The notes beneath the pieces were generated by a model. That model was given only the letters and a program-made list of their open reading frames with translations. It was not told the origin of the DNA and searched no databases. Shown in pieces: positions 4,264 through 60,099 of a DNA stretch of 64,000 nt. Numbering within the stretch: the stretch's first letter is position 1; each line of letters opens with the position of its first letter. A program made the translations under genes and the position numbers. This DNA comes from an uncultured Myxococcales bacterium (GTDB lineage Bacteria > Myxococcota_A > Bradymonadia > UBA4248): contig CAMCLY010000001.1 of assembly GCA_945875805.1 (NCBI GenBank), positions 197 through 64,196 of the forward strand, read 5' to 3'.

Positions 4264-4326
4264 CCGCTATTGCCTTCGGCAATACGCGCCGCCGTCGCGC
4301 TATCGGCCCGGGGCCGATACGCGCGA
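4264..4326. repeat. Tandem pair of REP-like GC hairpins (CCGCTATTGCC-ttc-GGCAATACGCG and CGCGCTATCGGCC-cgg-GGCCGATACGCGCG) between rex and hydC.
   Basis: These are inverted repeats read directly. They are members of the window-wide GCGC-TAT-CGGCC hairpin family. Confidence 0.8.
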
Positions 4327-38893: not shown

Positions 38894-39412
38894 CTATTGA
38901 ATGACGGTTTTGGCGCAAATGGCGCGCAAACTTTTCAATCCTTCTTTGGAGGAGCCTTCGATACCGGTGACGACGTATCCGGCCGGGCATTCGAGTTTGA
39001 AGTTATCGTTTTCGGCCTCGCCGACGCTTGGCGTTCGGACGGTCTGAGGTGCTTGGGCGACGATTTGTTTTTGAGTCTGAACTTTTTGACGAGTGAGTTC
39101 TTTTCCGTCGAGGAGGACGGCGACATAGAGTTCGGAACGAGACGTTTTGATGGTCGTCTGTTCGCCGAGGGCGATGGCGTAATTCCCGTCGACAACGGCG
39201 ACGAAATGTTTTTCGACGGCGAGGGTTTTTTTGTCGTTTGGCGAGGCGTAGATGCGAAATTCCAGGGGCAGGACGCCGGAGACGGGGGCGGCATTTTGAT
39301 CGACGAGTTCGCCGGAAAAGTCGACGATGGTCTGCAGGGATTCGGCGGCAAGGGCATGTGTGGCGGGCATGGCCAGAGCGACAGCGATGGCGAGTGCAAA
39401 GAAAATTTTCAT
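38894..39412 (-). CDS. Secreted hypothetical protein.
   Basis: The signal is MKIFFALAIAVALAMPATHALAA. The protein is 172 aa. Confidence 0.5.
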   Translation of the reverse strand: MKIFFALAIAVALAMPATHALAAESLQTIVDFSGELVDQNAAPVSGVLPLEFRIYASPNDKKTLAVEKHFVAVVDGNYAIALGEQTTIKTSRSELYVAVLLDGKELTRQKVQTQKQIVAQAPQTVRTPSVGEAENDNFKLECPAGYVVTGIEGSSKEGLKSLRAICAKTVIQ

Positions 39413-39630
39413 GGGATTGTCGAGGTGAAAAGAAGGTGAGTGAATCCGCATGGGGTAGGCGGTATGAGCGATGTGAGGGGGTAGGCGCGTATCGCGCGGT
39501 GGTCTAAAAAACGGCGATGCGGTCTATTATGTGGCGTCCGATTATGGCGCCTTGTTTCATGCACCGCGCGATAGCGACGTAGGGGGAGGCTTCCCCCCCC
39601 CCAAAAAAAACACCACAGGATTGGAAGGGG

Positions 39631-41487
39631 TTATTTGTTGGTCATTTCGGCGGCAGAGAGCAATTGAACCAGAGATTTGACGTCGGATTCTGTGTTGGGG
39701 ATGGCGGCGAGTTCGGCGATCAGGTCGCGGGCGTCCGAGAAGTTTTTGTCACGGATGGCGCTTTTAGCGTGTTTTTGGATGTTTGCGATACTATTTTTTT
39801 CGATATTGTCGCGGAACTGCATAGCGGCTTTGTAGCTGACACTCCCTTGGTTGACGGTGTTGAGGTATTGGATGGCCTCGCGCTGTTTATCGAGGGGTGC
39901 GGTGAGATTTCGGGCAGTTCTTCGGTTGTCGATTTCGAGATCGATGTCTCTTTCACGGATGATGAGGGTGTTATAGCGCTCAAGGAAGTTTTTGTCTTTG
40001 AACAAGGCGTTGTCTGGGTCTTTTGCCTTTGCGCTTTCGAGGTATTTTTGCGCGTCGTCATAGCGGTTGTCGGAGAGGGCTTTTGCGCTGAGTGAGATTT
40101 CTTCTTCGATGGCGGCGATGGTGGCTTTGCGCGTTTCGTTGTCGTTGCTGTTCATGAAGACGAAGATGAGGTAGGCCAGGGAGCCTAGGGCGAAGACGCC
40201 GAGTGCGCAGAGCAGGAGGATGGACCATAGTGGAGTGGTGTTGACGTCGCGCAGGTTTGGAGCGTAGGACATCATGTAGGGGCTGGTCATGGGGGAAGCG
40301 CCGGGCCATTGTGGGGCGGCGAGTCCACCGCCCTGTCGTTCGAGCATGGGCTCCATTTGTTGGGGCTGTGGTCCGGCGGGGATGGATGGGCGTGGATCTT
40401 CGGCAGGCGCGGAGACGGAGGGGGGGGCGCCATGGTTCATGGAGGTATTTTTCTGGTTGGGGTGGTATTCGACTTTGGGCGCGCCTTTCCACAATTCGTC
40501 GGGGTCGCCGCCGGACTGTTCAAATCTGAAACGAATGGAACCGATTTCGATGATATCTCCGTTTCTGAGCTGTCCGACGCGGATTCGGTATCCGTTGAGG
40601 AGTGTGCCGTTGGCGCTTTCGTTGTCGCGGATGCGGAATCCCTCGCGGAACTTGTCGATATCGGCGTGGTGTCGGCTGATGGCGATATCTGATGAGATGG
40701 CGATATCGTTTTTGTTGACGCGTCCGATGGTGGTTTTGTCGCGCACGAGGATGTATTCGCGCTGGCTTGTCTTGCCGGATTCGACGATGAGTTTACCCGA
40801 GAGGGGATCGTAGTCCATGGCACTCATGTTGATTTGAGTTTTCTGGCTTTCTTCGTCGAGTTCGAGATCGTCAGGCATCTCGCTAATCATCTGAGTTTTC
40901 TCGCCGGCGTCGTCGGGGGATTCCTCTTCGTACTGGAGTTCGTCGCCGTTATTTTCGGCGGCAGCGCCGCCGAAAATGGGGGCATTGTCTTCGGGTTGTG
41001 ATGCGGGGGCGGGCTGGGCGTCGACGTTGGCGAAGGGGTCGGGCTGGGCGTCGACGTTGGCGAAGGGGTCGGGCTGGGCATTGATACCGGCGAAGGGGTT
41101 GGGCTGGGCATTGATACCGGCGAAGGGATCGGCTTCTTTAGATTTCTGGGCGTTTTCGTCCGAAGGAATGCTGGAGACTGCCGAAGGAATGCTTGAAATA
41201 TTTGAGACTGGAGAGGAACCGGCTGTCTGTTGTACGCGCATTTCGGCGAGGGCTTTTTCGATGGCCTCCGGGCTTGGCTGGGCGACAGCCTCTGTGGCGC
41301 CGGATTCTGCGTCGAGATCGGGCAGAGAGGGTTCGGGGAGTTGTGTCGCCTTGGGCGACAGGGCGGGAATGTTTGAGGCGGCCTCTTTCTTTCCAAGTGC
41401 AGGGAGTTTTGGCAACGGGCTGTGTACCTGGGGGAGACGAGGAAGTTTGTTGTTACCCTTGGAATCGTTAAAAGGACTTCCGGCCAT
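39631..41487 (-). CDS. FHA-domain membrane protein with an N-terminal Pro/Ala-rich repeat region and a C-terminal helical domain.
   Basis: The FHA core is TTIGRVNKNDIAISSDIAISRHHADI...ANGTLLNGYRI...GDIIEIGSIRFRF. A TM helix follows (LWSILLLCALGVFALGSLAYLIFVF). The start was chosen at MAGSPFND. Confidence 0.7.
   Translation of the reverse strand: MAGSPFNDSKGNNKLPRLPQVHSPLPKLPALGKKEAASNIPALSPKATQLPEPSLPDLDAESGATEAVAQPSPEAIEKALAEMRVQQTAGSSPVSNISSIPSAVSSIPSDENAQKSKEADPFAGINAQPNPFAGINAQPDPFANVDAQPDPFANVDAQPAPASQPEDNAPIFGGAAAENNGDELQYEEESPDDAGEKTQMISEMPDDLELDEESQKTQINMSAMDYDPLSGKLIVESGKTSQREYILVRDKTTIGRVNKNDIAISSDIAISRHHADIDKFREGFRIRDNESANGTLLNGYRIRVGQLRNGDIIEIGSIRFRFEQSGGDPDELWKGAPKVEYHPNQKNTSMNHGAPPSVSAPAEDPRPSIPAGPQPQQMEPMLERQGGGLAAPQWPGASPMTSPYMMSYAPNLRDVNTTPLWSILLLCALGVFALGSLAYLIFVFMNSNDNETRKATIAAIEEEISLSAKALSDNRYDDAQKYLESAKAKDPDNALFKDKNFLERYNTLIIRERDIDLEIDNRRTARNLTAPLDKQREAIQYLNTVNQGSVSYKAAMQFRDNIEKNSIANIQKHAKSAIRDKNFSDARDLIAELAAIPNTESDVKSLVQLLSAAEMTNK
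41011..41130 (-). repeat. A 4 x 30-bp in-frame tandem repeat encoding DPFANVDAQP/NPFAGINAQP in the FHA protein.
   Basis: Unit starts on the plus strand are at 41011, 41041, 41071 and 41101. Confidence 0.85.
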
Positions 41488-41842
41488 AACCAACCTATAT
41501 TGAGGAAGGGCGCAAAGTGTTGCGCGGTGTGTGTGAGTTCGGCGCCCATAAAAATCGACGGGCCTATAGAAACTCGCTCTTTTAATCCATTTGCCGACAT
41601 CATGCAAGAAACGCCGGAAACGGGTTTTTGGCGGACGGGGCGTGGCCGTGGAGAGGGCGAGGGCGGGTGAAATAGTGATAAACTCGCGGGGGATTTTGGG
41701 CTATAAGGACGCCTGTTTTGGGCGTCGCGTGCGATGATGAGGTGGGCGACGCATGTTGACGGGCCTCGGCCTGGTTGCCGGGCCGGCAGATTCGGGCGGA
41801 ATTTGCCCGACAGATGGAGTTCATCGACAAGGATTTTCTGGT

Positions 41843-42643
41843 ATGTCTGAAATCGTACTCAAAAGCCGAGAGGAGATCGAGGCCATGCGTCATGCCTGCC
41901 GACTGGCAGCCCAGACGCTCGAAGAAGCCGCCAAAATGGTCAAGCCCGGCGAGAATACGCTCGCGATTAACGATTTTGTCCATGAATACACGATAAAGCA
42001 TCACGCCATTCCGGCCCCTTTGCATTATTGCGGGTATCCCAAATCGTGTTGTATTTCGATCAATGACGTCATTTGTCATGGCATTCCGAGCAAAAATGCA
42101 GTGCTTCGGGATGGCGATATCGTCAACATCGACATTACGTCCATTTTGGATGGTTGGCACGGCGATGTGTCGGCGACATTTTATGTCGGGACGCCTTCTC
42201 CGGAAGCCGTCAATCTGGTCGAAACGACGCGACGATGCCTTGAGATTGGAATTGCCGAAGTGCGGCCCGAGGCGCGGCTGGGCGATATTGGCGCGGCCAT
42301 TCAGACGTTTGCCGAGGGGCGCGGATTTTCGGTGGTGCGCGATTACGTCGGTCATGGCGTGGGACGCAAATTTCACGAAGAACCTCAGGTCGCCCATTAT
42401 GGCAAGCGTCACAAGGGGTTGCGCCTTCTGGAGGGGATGACCTTCACCATTGAGCCTATGATCAATGCTGGCGACTGGAGAATGCGCATTCTCGATGACA
42501 ACTGGACGTCTGTCACGCTCGATCACAAGTGGTCGGCCCAGTTTGAACACACCCTGGCGGTGACCGAAAATGGATGCGAGATCCTCACGGCGTTCAGCGG
42601 TCCGCTGGCGAATTCCGTGACGCCGGAGCATTTCAAGTTCTGA
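41843..42643 (+). CDS. map: Methionine aminopeptidase, type I.
   Basis: The ORF begins MSEIVLKSREEIEAMRHACRLAAQ... The metal ligands are in context (DIVNIDITS, HGDVSATF, GHGVGRKFHE, TIEPMIN). Confidence 0.9.
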   Translation: MSEIVLKSREEIEAMRHACRLAAQTLEEAAKMVKPGENTLAINDFVHEYTIKHHAIPAPLHYCGYPKSCCISINDVICHGIPSKNAVLRDGDIVNIDITSILDGWHGDVSATFYVGTPSPEAVNLVETTRRCLEIGIAEVRPEARLGDIGAAIQTFAEGRGFSVVRDYVGHGVGRKFHEEPQVAHYGKRHKGLRLLEGMTFTIEPMINAGDWRMRILDDNWTSVTLDHKWSAQFEHTLAVTENGCEILTAFSGPLANSVTPEHFKF

Positions 42644-42740: not shown

Positions 42741-45164
42741 TTGCGCTCTCCTTTTTGGGGGAGGGGGCGGGCAGAGAGGTCAGAGGGGACAATTTTGGAC
42801 GGAAGTAAGTTCGCCCTGCCGCCCAAGGCGGCCACATCAGAGAGTCGGCTGCGACAGCGTCTGGGTCGTACATGGCACGCTTTTTTTGCGCGTTTTCCGC
42901 ATCTTCGCGATATTCAGAAAGCTGCCATTGAGCCGATTTTGCGGGGTGAGTCGCTTATCGTCAATGCACCGACGGCGGCGGGCAAAACCGAGGCGTTGCT
43001 GGCACCAGTCATTGAGCGGTACTTGGACAACCGCACGGCGTGTCGGGGAGAGGGAATGCAGGTGTCGGGGACGTCTGCATCGCCCGTGGGGGGGGCGGTT
43101 GTCCAAAGTCAGGCCGAACAGCCTTCGGCGACGTGGCTGGACGCGATGAGCCGAACCAAATCCGCGCGTTTTTACAGCGGACGGACGGCGCCGGAGATCA
43201 CCCGGGCGAGGCGATCCCAATCGGCCATGGGGCACACCGACACGGGGAAGGGGCCGGCCATTCTCATCGTCGCCCCGACGAAGGCGTTGTGCAACGATTT
43301 GTATCGGCGTATGGCGACGCCCATCCAGAACACCGGATTGACGGTGGCGTTGCGCACCGGTGACAATCCAGCGTTTAACCTCGAACAGCCGCCGCAGGTA
43401 CTTGTCACGACCCCGGAATCGCTCGATTCCCTTCTGGCCCGTCGCCCGGCGGCGTTCAGGTACATCGAATCCATCATCATCGACGAAATCCATCTGGTGT
43501 GTGCCAGCGGACGCGGGGATCAACTGCAATGCCTCATCGCGCGTTTGCGCGTCCTTTGTGGACGTGATTTTCAGATTTGTGCATCGAGTGCGACCGTTCC
43601 GGAACTCGACCGCATCGCGCGCGATTTTATCGGTCCCACGGGCCGCACGCTGTCGAGCGAGGCCGGCGCGAGGGAAATCCATGCGTCGATGCACACCATT
43701 CGGACCGATCCACAAATGGCCGTCGAGGATACCGCCAGGTATCTCGAACAGTTGCTCGACGAATCCCCTCAACGCAAGATTTTGGCGTTCTGCAACTCTC
43801 GGGCGAATGTCGAAAACATCGTTTTTGCGTTGCGCCACCATGCGTCCAGTCCGACGGTTTCCGCGCGAGTCTTTGCGCATCACGGGTCGTTGTCCAAAGA
43901 GGAGCGCCTCCGCACCGAACAGCAGTTTTTGCGCGCCCGGAATGCCGTATGCGTGGCGACGAGTACGCTGGAACTCGGCATCGACATCGGCGACGTCGAC
44001 CGCATCGTTCTTTTGGGACCGCCTCCCGACGTGCCTTCTCTCATCCAGCGGATCGGGCGTGGCTGTCGAACCCGGGAGTCCGTGACCGCCTGTTGTTTGG
44101 CCGATTCTCCGTTCAGTGCCAACCGTTTTTACCATCTCGTCGAGTGTGCGCGCCACGAGTGTCTTTTTCCCGACCCCGTCGCCATTCGTCCGACGACGCT
44201 TGTCCAGCAGGCCCTCTCGATATGTCTGCAAAACCCAAGCGCCTGGATCGCAAAACAGGCGCTTTATGAGCGCATCGCGCCGTCGGCGCAGGCGCTCTAT
44301 TCTCCCGACGACTGCGGCCGCATTCTCGACGCCATGACCCAGCACGGATTGTTGCGCAAGGTCGAGCGCGGACGCTACGTGCCCGAAGCCAAGACTCAGT
44401 TCCTCTTCGATCGAGGGCTGATGCACTCCATGATTGCCGATCGCGGCGAGACCGACGTCGTCGATTCCGTCACGGGGCGCACCCTGGGATCCGTTTGTCT
44501 CAAAAAGTCCAACAAAGACGCCGTGGCCATGGGCAATGATGTCACCCTCACCCTGGCCGGTGCCGCCCACACCATTTCGTGCATTCGCGACAAGAAAATA
44601 TTTGTCAAGCGCGGCGACGAATCCGAAACCATGGCCTTTATGGCTCTCGAACCGCCGCGTTACTCTCTGGGACTCGCCCGGAGTTTTGCCCGGTTCATGC
44701 ACATTCCCGATGACGCGCTCTATCTGAGGGCTGTCCCGCAGATGGTGGATTCCTACCAGAATTTCACCCCCCAGTCCGGCGACGCGCTGAAACTCGACGT
44801 GCCGTCTACCGCCGTTTTTAACGCCGATTATCACGTCAATCATTTTATGGGGACTTTGGGCAGTTCCCTGCTGGAACTTTTCTTTGACGGCAAGGGCGCC
44901 CCCGTCCGAAAGGGCTCGCGCAGTCCCTTTTTTATGCGTCTGACGGTGCGTCCGTCGTTTGCGTCTTTTCCCGACGAAGCACGCCTGACCACGGCCTTTG
45001 AACTTTATATCCGTGGAAATCCTGCGCGCTTTGCGAGACTGCTTCAGCCCGGTCCATGGCTCGCCATCATTCCCGAAGACATTACCCTCAAATGGTTGCT
45101 CAACTCCATTGATGTTCGTGCCTATGCCAGGGTCCTCGCCGACAAACCCCTGGTCATTTTATAA
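42741..45164 (+). CDS. DExH-box helicase of the Lhr-core type (about 800 aa) with a roughly 75-aa insertion between motifs I and Ia.
   Basis: The motifs are APTAAGKT (I), APTKALCNDL (Ia), DEIH (II), SAT (III) and QRIGRGCR (VI). A roughly 330-aa non-helicase C-terminal region is consistent with the Lhr WH plus domain 4. Confidence 0.7.
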   Translation: MRSPFWGRGRAERSEGTILDGSKFALPPKAATSESRLRQRLGRTWHAFFARFPHLRDIQKAAIEPILRGESLIVNAPTAAGKTEALLAPVIERYLDNRTACRGEGMQVSGTSASPVGGAVVQSQAEQPSATWLDAMSRTKSARFYSGRTAPEITRARRSQSAMGHTDTGKGPAILIVAPTKALCNDLYRRMATPIQNTGLTVALRTGDNPAFNLEQPPQVLVTTPESLDSLLARRPAAFRYIESIIIDEIHLVCASGRGDQLQCLIARLRVLCGRDFQICASSATVPELDRIARDFIGPTGRTLSSEAGAREIHASMHTIRTDPQMAVEDTARYLEQLLDESPQRKILAFCNSRANVENIVFALRHHASSPTVSARVFAHHGSLSKEERLRTEQQFLRARNAVCVATSTLELGIDIGDVDRIVLLGPPPDVPSLIQRIGRGCRTRESVTACCLADSPFSANRFYHLVECARHECLFPDPVAIRPTTLVQQALSICLQNPSAWIAKQALYERIAPSAQALYSPDDCGRILDAMTQHGLLRKVERGRYVPEAKTQFLFDRGLMHSMIADRGETDVVDSVTGRTLGSVCLKKSNKDAVAMGNDVTLTLAGAAHTISCIRDKKIFVKRGDESETMAFMALEPPRYSLGLARSFARFMHIPDDALYLRAVPQMVDSYQNFTPQSGDALKLDVPSTAVFNADYHVNHFMGTLGSSLLELFFDGKGAPVRKGSRSPFFMRLTVRPSFASFPDEARLTTAFELYIRGNPARFARLLQPGPWLAIIPEDITLKWLLNSIDVRAYARVLADKPLVIL

Positions 45165-45296
45165 TGATGTTTGTAGATATATGATTTTGTACATAATTTG
45201 ATAGTCTTGGATTGGTACATTATATATAAATGTATGTCATTTGTATGTTTCAAAATTCGATTGCCCCTTCAACAAATATAGGAATGATGGATCATC

Positions 45297-46805
45297 GTGA
45301 ACGACACAACGCCCCCCGATCTTAAACAGCTCGCCACGCATTTGGCCACGATTCAGGACGTGGCTCTTCGGACGCACGAAACCCTTGAGCGCACGGCCAT
45401 GCCGCCGATTCTCGAGTTGGAGGCGTCCCTGGTTGGGGCGGGACGCACCCTCGACCTTGAGACGCGCGCGCGCGTGGAGTGGGCCCTTCTTCTTTTTTCG
45501 ACGCCGCGTTATGAAGTGCAGTCCGATTTTCAGACCGAGCTCGGAAAACACATCCACGATGCCGAGACCGCGCTCATCATGCGACAGTTGAGAAGCCGGG
45601 CGCCGCGTCTGTGGAGTTATCGCCGTTCCTATGATCGCGGCTTTGCCCATACCATGGCCGGCCCCCAAAAACACCACGAAATTGCCCTGGACGGGTTTGT
45701 CTATGTCGACGGCACATTTGAGTCCGCCGATCACCTTTATGCGCTTGGCTGGACGCTCTCGTATCACGACAGGATTTTCCTGATATGTGCGGACGTGGTT
45801 TCTCAGGCGCAGGCATTCTCTGTCGAAACCGTGCGTCCGTTCCCCCTCCAGCTCGATGACGACGATTTCTGGGACGAATGCTTTCACGGCATTTTTGATG
45901 TGCTCTATCCGTCGCGTGCGGCGGCAGGACTTGTGCCGCGCCGCGCCAGTCTTCCGTTGCCCGATTCGCCGGAACTCCGCTATGGCCGTTTGCAGCGCAT
46001 CCTGACCCGTGCGCTTTCCCCGGCCGTCGTTCGCAGGAGCCCGTCTCTGCATGAAATCGTTGCCACCGGCAGTCCGCAGGAGATTCTGGCCGCGGTTGAC
46101 AGTCTGATTCAGGTCGACACGGCATCGTCCCCTCTCGACGAACAGGGGCGTGACGTTCTCAGGCGCCGCCTGCTCCAGGCCGTTGGATGTGACGAAACAG
46201 CCCAGATGCCTTGTGCCCATGATGCCATTTTGGCCGCCGATCCCGTTGCCCTGCTCTGTCTCCCCGGCGACCTTCCTCTTTTCAGGGAAATTGCCCCGCG
46301 TGACAGCATCCGCCATGCCCTTTTGTATGACGAGCGCCACGGCTCGCACGAAGCTCTCGACGCCTTTGCCGTTTACCAGCGAGAGCGCCGCTTTCTTGCC
46401 TCCTTCCCGTGTCTCGACGTCGCCTGCGAAGAGCACGCCGCGCGCCTGGGCCTTCCCGCCGACGTCCTGCACCGAATCTTCGATCCCGCCCTCTTTGAGA
46501 CCGTCCTTCCCATCGTTCCGCAGGGCGACGTGTTGCGCCAGCTCCAGTCCAAATTTGGCTTCTATTCTCCCGATCCCCCTGTGTTTAAGGATGCCCTCGA
46601 TGCCGTTGCAAGTCGATCCCTGTCCCGAACCGGCAACATGTCCGCCATCCTTCAGTGGATTTTTACGTGTTGCGAACGCTGGCGCTACTGCCGCTCACAA
46701 ATCGATCCCGATACCGCCTCCACCCAGCGCTCCGTCAATCAGTCCAACCAGAAACTCCTTCATAGAGGTCTTTCCAGACTTGCCGATATGTTCAAAAAGA
46801 ACTGA
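45297..46805 (+). CDS. Hypothetical 502-aa protein immediately downstream of the helicase.
   Basis: The frame is GC3-biased. No recognisable motif was found. It is separated from the helicase by an A+T-rich 130-bp spacer. Confidence 0.5.
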   Translation: MNDTTPPDLKQLATHLATIQDVALRTHETLERTAMPPILELEASLVGAGRTLDLETRARVEWALLLFSTPRYEVQSDFQTELGKHIHDAETALIMRQLRSRAPRLWSYRRSYDRGFAHTMAGPQKHHEIALDGFVYVDGTFESADHLYALGWTLSYHDRIFLICADVVSQAQAFSVETVRPFPLQLDDDDFWDECFHGIFDVLYPSRAAAGLVPRRASLPLPDSPELRYGRLQRILTRALSPAVVRRSPSLHEIVATGSPQEILAAVDSLIQVDTASSPLDEQGRDVLRRRLLQAVGCDETAQMPCAHDAILAADPVALLCLPGDLPLFREIAPRDSIRHALLYDERHGSHEALDAFAVYQRERRFLASFPCLDVACEEHAARLGLPADVLHRIFDPALFETVLPIVPQGDVLRQLQSKFGFYSPDPPVFKDALDAVASRSLSRTGNMSAILQWIFTCCERWRYCRSQIDPDTASTQRSVNQSNQKLLHRGLSRLADMFKKN

Positions 46806-46850
46806 TCTGTTTGTGTGGATCGGACATCCATAGATAATTTTGGGGGGCTC

Positions 46851-46941
46851 GCCTGTTGCCTTTGGCAACACGGCTTTGCGCCGTGCCTATTGCATACGGC
46901 ACGGCCCGGCGCGCTATCGGCCTATGGCCGATACGCGCGCC
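46851..46941. repeat. Three consecutive REP-like hairpins (CCTGTTGCC-ttt-GGCAACACGG; GCCGTGCCTAT-tgc-ATACGGCACGGC; GCGCGCTATCGGCC-tat-GGCCGATACGCGCGC).
   Basis: Read directly. Confidence 0.75.
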
Positions 46942-46973
46942 GGAAAGATTCTGGAGAACGGAGGAGTTGGGGA

Positions 46974-47270
46974 TTAGAGAATGTGTTGGCGTTTGGCCTC
47001 AAAATAGATAAATGGAGCTTCGTTATAAAGTTTGTCAGGGTGATTTTTGTGATTGTCCCAACAGGCGCATCGATGTTCGCAAAAAATGTCATTATTGAGT
47101 TTCAAAAGTTCAATAGTGTTTTCAACTTGCACCTTTATTGTCTCAGGCATTGAAGGGTTCGCAAATACAGAGCCATCTAAAAAGTTGTAATAAAACCAAC
47201 CTGTTTCTATTTTAAAAGGATCGAGTGATGATGCAAATTTTCTCAAAAAGAAATCCAACAGGTTGGACAT
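46974..47270 (-). CDS. Small A+T-rich orphan ORF. The start is uncertain; the ORF track extends it to 47405 via TTG.
   Basis: The 98-aa version starts MSNLLDFFLRKF. It contains CEHRCACWDNHKNH. It lies within an A+T-rich segment of about 450 bp. There is no RBS and no homolog recognised. Confidence 0.3.
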   Translation of the reverse strand: MSNLLDFFLRKFASSLDPFKIETGWFYYNFLDGSVFANPSMPETIKVQVENTIELLKLNNDIFCEHRCACWDNHKNHPDKLYNEAPFIYFEAKRQHIL

Positions 47271-47422
47271 GAAAATAAGACTTAAGTCTCGACGGGGGGA
47301 TTGATGAGCGTAGCGGGGATATGCAAGTTTTGATGACGTGAACTTTAGAACACAGGCTTGAATCATCACGTCTGACGGTAGTGGAAAACGGACTCCAAAA
47401 GACAATGATAAAGACAGAATAC

Positions 47423-48133
47423 TTACAAAAACTTTAATATATCTTCAAAAGTTTGGCATCGCCTCATGCGAGGATGGGGCGGTAACGGGAGATCTTCGTG
47501 GGCCCATGTCATGGTGTGTGGGATGTGAATGGCCCAGCATCCGAGTTGCAATGGCGCGAGGATATCGGAACGGGGCGAGTTTCCAACCATGACAAAATGG
47601 GTGGGATCGATGTGTTCGCGTTCAAAGAAGCGTGCGTAGGTGTCGGCTTCTTTGTCCTGGAGTACGTGGTAGGGAATGGATTGGTCGAGTGGTGAGAGGA
47701 TGAACTTTCGCGTCTGTTCGCCGAGATCGCCTTTGGTGAGGATGCGAATGCGGTACTTTTTTTGGAGTTGGGCCACGGTTTGGGTGACGCCGGGCAACAT
47801 CTGGACGGGACTTTCCATCAGTTGGCGTCCGATGGCGAGTATGGTTTGAATGGCCCGGGCGGGGAGATCAGGGCAGAGCGTGGTGGCGGTCTCGATCATC
47901 GACAGTGTCATCGCTTTGCTGCCGTATCCGAGAAGAGGCATGTTGCGCTCTTCGGTGCGGGCCAAATGGGCGGTGATGTCTTCTTCCGGGCAAAAGCCTG
48001 ACATGAGATCGACAAACGCATGCTCCATGTCCATATAAAAGCGCTCATTTTCCCACAACGTATCGTCGGCATCCAGGCCGATGCACGAGACGTGGGGGAT
48101 TGGGGTGACGACGTCGGTTTGCGATTCGCTCAT
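47423..48133 (-). CDS. HAD-superfamily hydrolase.
   Basis: Motif I is IGLDADDTLW (DxDxT). The protein is 236 aa. Confidence 0.7.
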   Translation of the reverse strand: MSESQTDVVTPIPHVSCIGLDADDTLWENERFYMDMEHAFVDLMSGFCPEEDITAHLARTEERNMPLLGYGSKAMTLSMIETATTLCPDLPARAIQTILAIGRQLMESPVQMLPGVTQTVAQLQKKYRIRILTKGDLGEQTRKFILSPLDQSIPYHVLQDKEADTYARFFEREHIDPTHFVMVGNSPRSDILAPLQLGCWAIHIPHTMTWAHEDLPLPPHPRMRRCQTFEDILKFL

Positions 48134-48486: not shown

Positions 48487-48559
48487 GCGGCGCGTATCGG
48501 CGGTTGGCCGATAGCGCCGCGCGCATGGCGTATCCGCCCGGAGGGCGGATAGCCTGCGC
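48487..48559. repeat. Tandem pair of REP-like hairpins (GCGCGTATCGGCG-gtt-GGCCGATAGCGCC; GGCGTATCCGCCC-ggag-GGCGGATAGCC).
   Basis: Read directly. Confidence 0.75.
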
Positions 48560-60019: not shown

Positions 60020-60099
60020 CGCGGGCTATCTGCCGGTGGCAGATACGCCTTGCGCGCGGCGCTATCCGCCGGTGGCGGATACGCGCCGCTTTTTTTTTG
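60020..60099 (+). terminator. Tandem REP-like hairpins (GGGCTATCTGCC-ggt-GGCAGATACGCC; GCGGCGCTATCCGCC-ggt-GGCGGATACGCGCCGC) followed by T10. They act as the terminator of the TolB-like gene.
   Basis: The second hairpin is immediately followed by tttttttttt. Confidence 0.5.

What the first reader, a model, noticed from the sequence alone, without database searches (positions are those of the whole stretch)
42741..46805. Lhr-core-like DExH helicase with a roughly 75-aa RecA1 insertion, paired with an unknown 502-aa protein instead of the usual MPE nuclease
The helicase has motifs I (APTAAGKT), Ia, II (DEIH), III (SAT) and VI (QRIGRGCR). It has a roughly 330-aa C-terminal extension and a total length of 807 aa, which fits Lhr-core proteins. 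In characterised bacteria lhr is followed by a metallophosphoesterase (mpe). Here the downstream gene, separated by a 130-bp A+T-rich spacer at 45165-45296, encodes a 502-aa protein with no phosphoesterase motifs (no GDxHG/GNHE). The helicase also has an unusual insertion between motifs I and Ia (...YLDNRTACRGEGMQVSG...TDTGKGPA). The region is bounded downstream by three REP hairpins and an A+T-rich islet. This could be a variant DNA-repair pair or a helicase-based defence module.
Basis: partly seen in the sequence, partly recalled or inferred. Interest (0 to 1): 0.5.

Follow-up and report, generated by a model that had tools for sequence, protein, structure and literature searches.

The report
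Lhr-fold helicase with novel partner protein
A DNA/RNA helicase shaped like the repair helicase Lhr is always encoded next to a previously undescribed 500-residue protein in a group of uncultured gut Myxococcota, and the pair appears to be one half of a five-gene helicase/ATPase system that this lineage has split between two ordinary chromosomal sites.

Summary
There is a DExH helicase, most likely 789 aa from the TTG at 42795 rather than 807 aa. A 132-bp, 28% G+C spacer follows it, then a 502-aa ORF with no Pfam, NCBIfam, PADLOC, PHROG or PDB match.

The partner belongs to a rare family: 44 clusters among 1.84 billion proteins. It has a confident predicted structure with no significant structural neighbour, and only two polar residues are invariant across the family.

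Helicase and partner are adjacent in all 14 distinct related loci where a close partner homologue was found. Twelve of these also have map upstream, and the gene pair usually overlaps or nearly abuts.

In free-living relatives the same helicase ends an operon of an unknown 290-aa protein and two BrxD-like AAA+ ATPases, sometimes followed by a partner homologue. In one gut-lineage MAG this three-gene set sits at a separate housekeeping locus.

My reading is a vertically inherited, split, BrxD/BrxHI-related helicase machine with a non-catalytic partner subunit. Whether it serves genome maintenance or immunity is unresolved.

The parts
42795..45164 (+). SF2 DExH helicase, 789 aa (the ORF opens at the TTG at 42741, giving 807 aa). 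Architecture: RecA1, RecA2, winged helix, small beta-barrel, alpha/beta C-domain, i.e. the Lhr-Core fold. Sequence clade: BrxHI/SngC-like.
43068..43241 (+). Coding region for the disordered, low-complexity loop between helicase motifs I and Ia (residues 92-149 of the 789-aa protein). This is the 'RecA1 insertion'.
   Evidence: pLDDT below 50. Motif I to Ia spacing is 94 aa here, 22-42 aa in outgroups and 36-99 aa in the lineage. Alignments A2 and A3.
45165..45296 (.). 132-bp A+T-rich (28% G+C) spacer between helicase and partner. It contains one sigma-70-like consensus match. It is specific to this genome and not conserved.
   Evidence: Promoter-like site at 45158-45185, not above the shuffle expectation. 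No Rfam match.
45297..46805 (+). Partner protein, 502 aa, acidic (pI 5.8), from a rare uncharacterised family. Layout: N-terminal helices, a six-strand beta module (about residues 104-168), and a large helical C-terminal domain (about 288-502) that is the part best conserved across the family.
   Evidence: No family hits. 23 close homologues. 44 clusters among 1.84 billion representatives. AlphaFold2 pLDDT 89.9, pTM 0.83. No significant structural neighbour. Family-wide invariant residues.
41753..42643 (+). Methionine aminopeptidase gene (map). It is the conserved upstream neighbour of the pair in the gut lineage. It is context, not a proven component.
   Evidence: Pfam Peptidase_M24 2.4e-53. 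The order map, helicase, partner is colinear in 12 distinct related loci.
46848..46945 (.). Three consecutive G+C-rich hairpins directly after the partner's stop codon. They are REP-like and a probable transcript end or stabiliser.
   Evidence: Inverted repeats. RNAfold -68.3 kcal/mol for 46835-46950, and related copies elsewhere in the window.

Best explanation
The two genes encode a dedicated two-subunit unit. One subunit is an SF2 DExH helicase with the four-domain Lhr-Core fold, belonging by sequence to the BrxHI/SngC-like clade. The other is a 500-residue acidic protein of an undescribed family and fold that acts as the helicase's own, probably non-catalytic, subunit (adaptor, regulator or substrate-selecting module).

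The unit is the distal half of a five-component system found in Myxococcota and Bradymonadales-type bacteria: an unknown 290-aa protein (here called g290), two BrxD-like ORC/Cdc6-type AAA+ ATPases, the helicase and the partner. In the uncultured gut, rumen and termite Myxococcota lineage that the window comes from, the system has been split. The helicase-partner dyad sits right after map. The g290 plus two-ATPase set sits at a second housekeeping locus after a PfkB kinase gene.

By analogy with Lhr-Core and with the proposed BrxD-BrxHI relationship, the ATPases would load or activate the helicase. The helicase would translocate 3'-to-5' on single-stranded nucleic acid. The partner would dock on the basic helicase and direct or restrain it.

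Because both halves are vertically inherited at fixed core-genome sites with native composition, I favour a chromosomal nucleic-acid maintenance or surveillance role over a mobile anti-phage island.

Shown here: gene structure, fold, family assignment, synteny, operon ancestry, and the split in one MAG. Inferred: physical complex, non-catalytic partner, polarity, loading by the ATPases, and the biological role.
For: (1) Strict linkage. A helicase orthologue lies immediately upstream of the partner homologue in 14 distinct related loci (L001-L003, L008, L009, L011-L018, L020). These include L008, which lacks map, and distant pairs at only 25-31% partner identity (L008, L022-L025). The gap between the two genes is -4 to +42 nt by the database gene calls and homologous starts in most loci, with three long-spacer exceptions.

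(3) Operon ancestry. Helicases at 33-45% identity close an operon of g290, BrxD-like, BrxD-like and helicase in L005-L007 and in about 9 further metagenome loci. A partner homologue follows the helicase in L007 (C-terminal 210 aa, hhalign 96.8%), in L029 (full length, 99.5%, E 5e-23), and in L030 and L033.

(4) The split. A clade of loci has the three-gene set without a helicase (L034, L035, L037-L042, L055). The BrxD-like protein of L055 is 100% identical to P0285, which is NCBI MCL2325256.1. That is 166 accession numbers from the helicase and partner MCL2325089.1/090.1 of termite-gut MAG Cu122P3bin5.

(5) Core-genome character. map, an FHA protein, DnaK, Lgt and amylases surround the pair. 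PfkB, a tRNA synthetase and MetH surround the three-gene set. GC3 is 0.67-0.69, against 0.62-0.71 for neighbouring genes. There are no PADLOC hits in flanking genes apart from a small foreign fragment. There is no relative in 2.9 million viral contigs.

(6) Partner probably non-enzymatic. Across 22 diverse members only A256, L320, A356, E363, W462, R463, L495 and F499 are invariant. No known catalytic motif is present. The partner is acidic (pI 5.8) and the helicase is basic (pI 9.1).
Against: - No experiment and no complex model supports a physical interaction.
- The link between the three-gene locus and the dyad in one genome rests on one MAG and on the closeness of NCBI accession numbers. 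The window's own genome was not checked beyond 64 kb, where no BrxD-like or g290 gene exists.
- The closest named relatives of the helicase (BrxHI, SngC) and of the ATPases (BrxD, SngB) are defence-system components. The literature treats that helicase clade as immune (PMC12278908).
- Within the gut lineage the partner has many extra invariant His, Glu, Asp and Cys residues. These could form a lineage-specific active site.
- Two very distant partner relatives (P0156 in L021, P0158 in L026) have no adjacent helicase.
- A remnant of a Septu-type HNH gene lies just downstream. It is absent from the related loci fetched. It shows that foreign defence DNA can land here.
Confidence: 0.5

Rival explanations
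1. It is an anti-phage or anti-plasmid defence module. A BrxHI/SngC-type sensor helicase would be coupled to a new effector (the 502-aa protein), working like Hachiman HamAB or as a BREX/Shango-derived system, with or without the distal BrxD-like ATPases.
For: The best profile matches of the helicase are defence models: BrxHI 254 bits, SngC 244 bits, DpdJ, DrmA and HamB. The outgroup ATPases match BrxD and SngB. SngC, BrxHI, DruE and DpdJ are described as a clade defined by immune functions (PMC12278908). BrxD and BrxHI form a tight dyad in type 2 BREX (PMC12839542). The partner evolves faster (44-51% identity) than the helicase (55-66%) or map (73-85%). A PtuB-like HNH fragment lies next door.
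Against: The pair holds the same core-genome position in 12 distinct related loci, from rumen, termite-gut and other metagenome samples. Composition is native. There is no BREX core (PglX/PglZ/PglW), no TerB protein and no other defence gene nearby. The partner has no effector-like domain or fold match and almost no conserved polar residues family-wide. The BrxD-like ATPase is 60-81% identical across two bacterial lineages, which is unusually conservative for an immune gene. There are no viral homologues.
Confidence: 0.27
2. It is an ordinary Lhr-Core DNA-repair pair in which the MPE endonuclease has been replaced by an unrelated nuclease or end-processing enzyme, namely the 502-aa protein. 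It would act on damaged DNA or RNA:DNA hybrids independently of any AAA+ ATPases.
Against: Helicase scores fall far below every curated Lhr cut-off. The region after the helicase core aligns to BrxHI and SngC, not to Lhr profiles. There is no nuclease or phosphoesterase motif or fold in the partner. Polar invariant residues are lost in distant family members. Ancestry lies in the BrxD-type operon.
Confidence: 0.13
3. The adjacency has no functional meaning. Two unrelated genes simply travel together because of lineage-specific synteny after map.
For: Most of the evidence comes from one lineage, where the whole neighbourhood (FHA protein, map, helicase, partner) is syntenic.
Against: The adjacency persists outside that neighbourhood: in L008, in L022-L025, and in the five-gene operons L007, L029 and L030, at partner identities of 20-31%. 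In several loci the genes overlap by 4 nt.
Confidence: 0.03

Closest known systems
Lhr-Core helicase and the Lhr-Core/MPE (and Exo-Lig-Lhr-Core-MPE) repair clusters (M. smegmatis, P. putida; PMC8053096, PMC7826289)
   Different: Sequence scores are 5- to 14-fold below the curated Lhr thresholds. The protein is 789 aa with a shorter C-domain. A long disordered loop lies between motifs I and Ia. The downstream gene is not a metallophosphoesterase and matches no known fold. No ligase or exonuclease is nearby.
BrxD-BrxHI dyad of type 2 BREX (Pgl) systems (PMC12839542)
   Same: The helicase's best profile is BrxHI, which aligns through the winged-helix and beta-barrel region. The domain order matches the published BrxHI description: SF2 core, wHTH, small beta-barrel, Lhr-like alpha/beta C-terminal domain. 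Outgroup orthologues directly follow BrxD-like ORC/Cdc6-type ATPases.
   Different: No PglW, PglX, PglY or PglZ. There are two BrxD paralogues instead of one, plus an unknown 290-aa first gene. A fifth component, the partner, is not described for BREX. In the gut lineage the ATPases are at a different locus. The context is housekeeping.
Shango (SngA TerB-domain protein, SngB ATPase, SngC helicase)
   Same: The helicase hits SngC nearly as well as BrxHI (7.5e-73). The outgroup ATPases hit SngB. The overall logic is the same: a small protein, ATPase(s) and a helicase.
   Different: The first gene of the outgroup operon has no TerB or PADLOC SngA match. The ATPases score higher to BrxD than to SngB. 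The partner has no counterpart in Shango.
Hachiman HamA-HamB (PMC12278908)
   Same: A two-gene unit of an SF2 helicase plus a protein that was long of unknown function. A helicase-restrains-partner logic is conceivable here.

Membership tests
Lhr-Core helicase | SF2 DExH motifs I, Ia, II, III and VI | tested here: met
   APTAAGKT, PTKAL, DEIH, SAT and QRIGRG are read directly from the translation. Pfam DEAD 9.6e-30 and Helicase_C 2.8e-20.
Lhr-Core helicase | Four-domain tertiary structure (RecA1, RecA2, winged helix, Lhr-specific C-domain; PMC8053096) | tested here: met
Lhr-Core helicase | Score above the curated cut-off of an Lhr-family model (TIGR04121, PRK13767, PRK09751) | tested here: not met
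   181, 158 and 108 bits against cut-offs of 850, 849 and 1496. The alignments cover only the RecA core.
Lhr-Core helicase | Clustered with the MPE metallophosphoesterase (with or without Exo and a ligase) | tested here: not met
   The downstream protein has no MPE motif or Pfam hit. No such gene exists in the neighbourhood.
Lhr-Core helicase | 3'-to-5' ssDNA translocase that prefers RNA:DNA hybrids | not testable with these tools
   This is a biochemical property, inferred only from the fold.
BrxHI (type 2 BREX helicase) | Sequence match to a BrxHI profile that includes the post-core domains | tested here: met
   PDLC02503 BrxHI at 5.7e-76, 254 bits, protein residues 167-651 to profile positions 67-546 of 698. 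It is the top PADLOC hit, but the library has no curated cut-off.
BrxHI (type 2 BREX helicase) | Adjacent BrxD ATPase | tested here: not met
   No BrxD-like gene in the 64-kb window or in the gut-lineage loci. It is present next to outgroup orthologues and at a separate locus in one lineage MAG.
BrxHI (type 2 BREX helicase) | BREX core genes (PglX methyltransferase, PglZ, BrxC/PglY, PglW) in the locus | tested here: not met
   Flanking genes are an FHA protein, map, a HAD hydrolase, amylases, DnaK and Lgt. They have no PADLOC hits. The outgroup operons also lack these genes.
Shango (SngABC) | SngC-like helicase together with an SngB ATPase and a TerB-domain SngA | tested here: not met
   SngC hit at 7.5e-73, but there is no SngB or SngA in the window. 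The outgroup first gene has no TerB, SngA or Pfam match.
Hachiman (HamAB) | HamB helicase plus HamA (DUF1837) nuclease | tested here: not met
   HamB reaches only 2.1e-15, 54 bits. The partner has no PADLOC or Pfam hit.
MrfA/MrfB-type repair pair | DUF1998 zinc-binding C-terminal domain on the helicase and an exonuclease partner | tested here: not met
Split Lhr (helicase core plus separately encoded Lhr-CTD) | Partner homologous to the Lhr C-terminal domain (five winged helices plus a beta-barrel, AlkZ-like; 7lhl) | tested here: not met

The most novel reading that the evidence does not exclude
Myxococcota and Bradymonadales-type bacteria carry a previously undescribed, vertically inherited five-component nucleic-acid machine: an unknown 290-aa protein, two ORC/Cdc6-like BrxD-type AAA+ ATPases, an Lhr-fold helicase and a new-fold partner. 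It would be a core cellular system, for example helicase loading for R-loop or replication-conflict or repair processing, rather than an immune system. The BREX BrxD-BrxHI dyad and Shango would then be defence offshoots of this kind of module, or the reverse. The gut lineage shows that the machine still works when its genes are split between two loci.
Probability: 0.3. Interest if true: 0.7.

Novelty: new variant of a known kind. Interest (0 to 1): 0.55.

Why it matters
BrxHI- and SngC-type helicases and BrxD-type ATPases are known only as poorly understood accessory parts of BREX and Shango. How they work is an open question.

Here the same kind of helicase, with the Lhr-Core fold, comes with a dedicated and completely uncharacterised partner family. 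It also has a highly conserved pair of BrxD-like ATPases, in a setting that looks chromosomal and vertically inherited.

That gives a simpler, methyltransferase-free context for asking what the BrxD-BrxHI module does. It adds a new protein family, with a confident predicted structure and no significant structural neighbour, to the list of helicase partners. It also offers a natural test of whether such modules are strictly immune or have housekeeping origins.

The impact is limited because the partner family is rare (44 clusters) and the partner-bearing organisms are uncultured.

Tried and rejected
Hypotheses about the partner that were tested and rejected:
- MPE or another phosphoesterase: no motif and no Pfam hit.
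- HamA or another known defence effector: no PADLOC hit.
- A phage protein: no PHROG hit and no relative in viral contigs.
- A diverged copy of the operon's 290-aa protein or of BrxD: hhalign probability below 1% in both comparisons.
- A P-loop protein: no Walker A motif.

Other checks that led nowhere:
- The 132-bp spacer as a conserved regulatory RNA or element: no Rfam hit, not alignable with the long spacers of L011 and L017, and its promoter-like match is within the shuffle expectation.
- Recent horizontal transfer of the pair: GC3 matches the neighbouring genes, and megablast finds no plasmid match beyond about 48 bp.

Searches that failed or could not be run:
- The afdb50 structure library was not available.
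- A metagenome scan seeded with distant partner relatives failed because the alignment was too divergent.
- A second MAG linking the three-gene locus to the dyad could not be found, because the other NCBI members carry no accession numbers in the collection.


Full report
WHAT IS IN THE SEQUENCE

The two ORFs exist as described: 42741-45164 (+) and 45297-46805 (+). The helicase has motifs I (APTAAGKT), Ia (PTKAL), II (DEIH), III (SAT) and VI (QRIGRG).

The annotated start should probably move to the TTG at 42795. A purine-rich Shine-Dalgarno-like sequence precedes it, and it gives the 789-aa length of the 99%-identical database cluster P0024.

The two genes are separated by 132 bp at 28% G+C. 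Three G+C-rich hairpins follow them at 46848-46945, with REP-like copies elsewhere in the window.

Composition is native. GC3 is 0.69 and 0.67 for the pair, against 0.62-0.71 for map, dnaK, lgt, the amylase gene and the FHA gene. The surrounding genes are housekeeping: an FHA protein, methionine aminopeptidase, a HAD hydrolase, alpha-amylases, a LamB-like porin, DnaK, an amidase and Lgt.

THE HELICASE

Pfam sees only DEAD and Helicase_C. The NCBIfam Lhr-type models are the best curated hits but fall far below their cut-offs: TIGR04121 at 181 of 850 bits, PRK13767 at 158 of 849, and PRK09751 at 108 of 1496. They align only the RecA core.

PADLOC gives much stronger and longer alignments to BrxHI (5.7e-76, out to residue 651) and SngC (7.5e-73). 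By sequence, the closest solved structure is Lhr (5v9x, 93 bits, core only).

The domain order is RecA1, RecA2, winged helix (about 467-540), a small beta-barrel (about 553-606) and an alpha/beta C-domain (about 625-789). This matches the published description of BrxHI (PMC12839542) and of Lhr-Core (PMC8053096).

So "Lhr-core-like" is correct for the fold. By sequence, the protein belongs with the BrxHI/SngC group, which Tuck et al. describe as a possibly distinct SF2 clade (PMC12278908).

THE INSERTION

The distance from motif I to motif Ia is 94 residues here. It is 22-42 in the outgroup helicases and ranges from 36 to 99 within the same lineage. The extra residues (92-149) are predicted to be disordered. 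This is a variable, low-complexity surface loop. It is not a domain, and it is not peculiar to this genome.

THE PARTNER

The 502-aa protein has no match in:
- Pfam, NCBIfam, PADLOC or PHROGs;
- PDB sequences, even with a family profile at E up to 10;
- IMG/VR viral contigs.

It has 23 close homologues, 44-51% identical and all about 500 aa. An exhaustive profile search of 1.84 billion cluster representatives finds only 44 proteins at E up to 1e-3. The family is real, under purifying selection, and rare.

Its AlphaFold2 model is very confident (pLDDT 89.9, pTM 0.83). It shows N-terminal helices, a six-strand beta module (about 104-168), and a large helical C-terminal domain.

Across 22 diverse family members the invariant positions are A256, L320, A356, E363, W462, R463, L495 and F499. 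These are mostly structural residues with two polar ones, which argues against a conserved active site.

The protein is acidic (pI 5.8) and the helicase is basic (pI 9.1). Eight of the 31 distant members scanned carry a SEC-C zinc motif, N-terminal where its position was checked. No other known domain is present.

LINKAGE

A helicase orthologue lies directly upstream of the partner homologue in all 14 distinct related loci that carry a close partner homologue. These came from three sources:
- exact-protein look-ups (L001-L003 and L009);
- a scan of GTDB species genomes, which returned 11 loci, two of them duplicating look-up loci (L010 = L001, L019 = L004);
- L008, where map is absent and the partner is only 31% identical.

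In 12 of these the order is map, helicase, partner, often with the FHA gene divergent upstream.

Still more distant partner relatives, P0150 and P0151 (25-30% identity), again sit 4 nt into the end of a helicase orthologue that is about 40% identical to ours.

By the database gene calls and homologous starts the helicase-partner gap is -4 to +42 nt in most loci. The window (132 nt), L011 (220 nt) and L017 (173 nt) have unrelated longer spacers.

The record titles place the lineage in uncultured Myxococcota/Myxococcales. The MAGs come from goat, buffalo and roe-deer digestive tracts and from a sample (JGI 3300002127, MAG Cu122P3bin5) that I take from memory to be termite gut.

WHERE THE PAIR COMES FROM

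Helicases 33-45% identical over their full length occur in Lujinxingia, other Bradymonadales and Myxococcota. There they form the last gene of a conserved operon: a 283-300-aa protein with no family match (g290), a 440-aa BrxD-like ATPase, a roughly 500-aa BrxD-like ATPase, and the helicase.

A metagenome scan seeded with the first ATPase returned 33 loci. All of them show g290 next to the first ATPase. Where the sequence extends far enough, nine show the helicase next (L029-L031, L033, L036, L044, L045, L049, L056).

A partner homologue follows the helicase in:
- L007 (C-terminal 210 residues, hhalign 96.8%);
- L029 (full length, 477 aligned columns, 99.5%, E 5e-23);
- L030 and L033.

It is absent in L005, L006, L045, L049 and L056. 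The partner is therefore an optional fifth component of this operon.

A distinct clade of nine loci has g290 and the two ATPases but no helicase downstream (L034, L035, L037-L042, L055; G+C 0.48-0.57). The first ATPase of L055 is 100% identical to P0285. Its NCBI accession, MCL2325256.1, lies 166 numbers from the helicase and partner (MCL2325089.1 and MCL2325090.1) of the termite-gut MAG Cu122P3bin5.

I infer from the accession block that these proteins come from one MAG. This is an inference, not a proof.

The other helicase-less loci are 71-75% identical to P0285. That is the same range as map within the partner-bearing lineage (73-85%).

In L055 and L039 the three-gene set follows a PfkB kinase gene and is surrounded by housekeeping genes such as a tRNA synthetase and MetH.

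The simplest reading is that the gut lineage has split the five-gene system into two fixed chromosomal loci. The 64-kb window itself has no BrxD-like or g290 gene.

MECHANISM (INFERENCE)

By analogy with Lhr-Core (PMC8053096), the helicase should be a 3'-to-5' translocase on single strands that can displace RNA or DNA. By analogy with the proposal for BrxD-BrxHI (PMC12839542), the ORC/Cdc6-type ATPases may load or activate it.

Three features fit a stoichiometric, non-catalytic partner subunit that docks on the helicase and tunes its substrate choice or activity:
- tight, often overlapping gene arrangement;
- opposite net charge to the helicase;
- lack of conserved catalytic residues.

Repair versus defence. 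In favour of a chromosomal maintenance or surveillance role:
- fixed positions in core-genome neighbourhoods;
- native composition;
- 60-81% identity of the first ATPase across Bradymonadales and Myxococcota;
- absence of BREX core, TerB or other defence genes;
- absence from viral contigs.

In favour of immunity:
- all named relatives (BrxHI, SngC, BrxD, SngB) are defence components;
- the partner evolves faster than its neighbours.

I put about 0.5 on the split, vertically inherited helicase machine with a non-catalytic partner, leaning towards maintenance. I put about 0.27 on a defence module and about 0.13 on a plain Lhr-type repair pair with a substitute nuclease.

NOVELTY

I found no description of the partner family, of the five-gene operon, or of its split form in the papers searched. 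The helicase is a new member of a known kind. The partner is an undescribed family and fold. The system as a whole is best called a new variant of the BrxD-BrxHI/Lhr-type helicase modules.

Noticed in passing
window 46950-47425 (ORF 46974-47405, - strand): An A+T-rich islet (G+C 0.39 against about 0.57 around it) holds a 143-codon ORF. Its C-terminal part (residues 56-141, motif CEHRCACWDNHKNH) matches the Septu HNH nuclease PtuB (PADLOC PDLC00348, E 3.1e-14, profile positions 102-191 of 198). There is no PtuA nearby, no Pfam hit, and no counterpart in the related loci fetched. It is probably a truncated remnant of a foreign defence gene.
   Followed up: partly
window 47423-48133 (- strand) compared with L011, L012 and L017: The HAD-hydrolase gene downstream of the pair is on the opposite strand in the window. 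In three related genomes it follows the partner on the same strand. This suggests a local inversion or insertion event together with the A+T-rich islet.
   Followed up: no
window 46848-46945; also 4296-4325, 48490-48517 and 60059-60086: A family of G+C-rich, REP-like palindromic hairpins recurs in intergenic regions of the window (86-90% identical copies of the third hairpin).
   Followed up: partly
L005 3103-9067, L006 3244-9052, L007 3269-10848, L029 8574-16580, and about 30 further loci (L027-L059): A very conserved operon in Bradymonadales and Myxococcota: an unknown 283-300-aa protein (invariant C-terminal motif GTATGGSTKDKRNVLFVP), two paralogous BrxD-like AAA+ ATPases (the first 60-81% identical across taxa), and an Lhr-fold helicase. 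The first gene has no Pfam or PADLOC match. As far as I could find, the operon is undescribed.
   Followed up: partly
L021 8001-9674 and L026 1282-2979: Very distant partner-family members (P0156, P0158; about 560 aa) are not next to any helicase. One follows polysaccharide-synthesis genes. The other stands alone before a dodecin gene. The broader family is therefore not always helicase-linked.
   Followed up: partly
distant partner-family proteins P0154, P0157, P0160, P0162, P0177, P0183 and P0185: Several distant relatives carry an N-terminal SEC-C-type zinc motif (CPCGSGKKYKKCC). The window's protein lacks it.
   Followed up: no
window 39631-41607 (- strand) and 38897-39439: A 658-aa FHA-domain protein and a 180-aa ORF of unknown function are conserved next to map in most genomes of the lineage. 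It is not known whether the FHA protein has any functional tie to the helicase pair.
   Followed up: no
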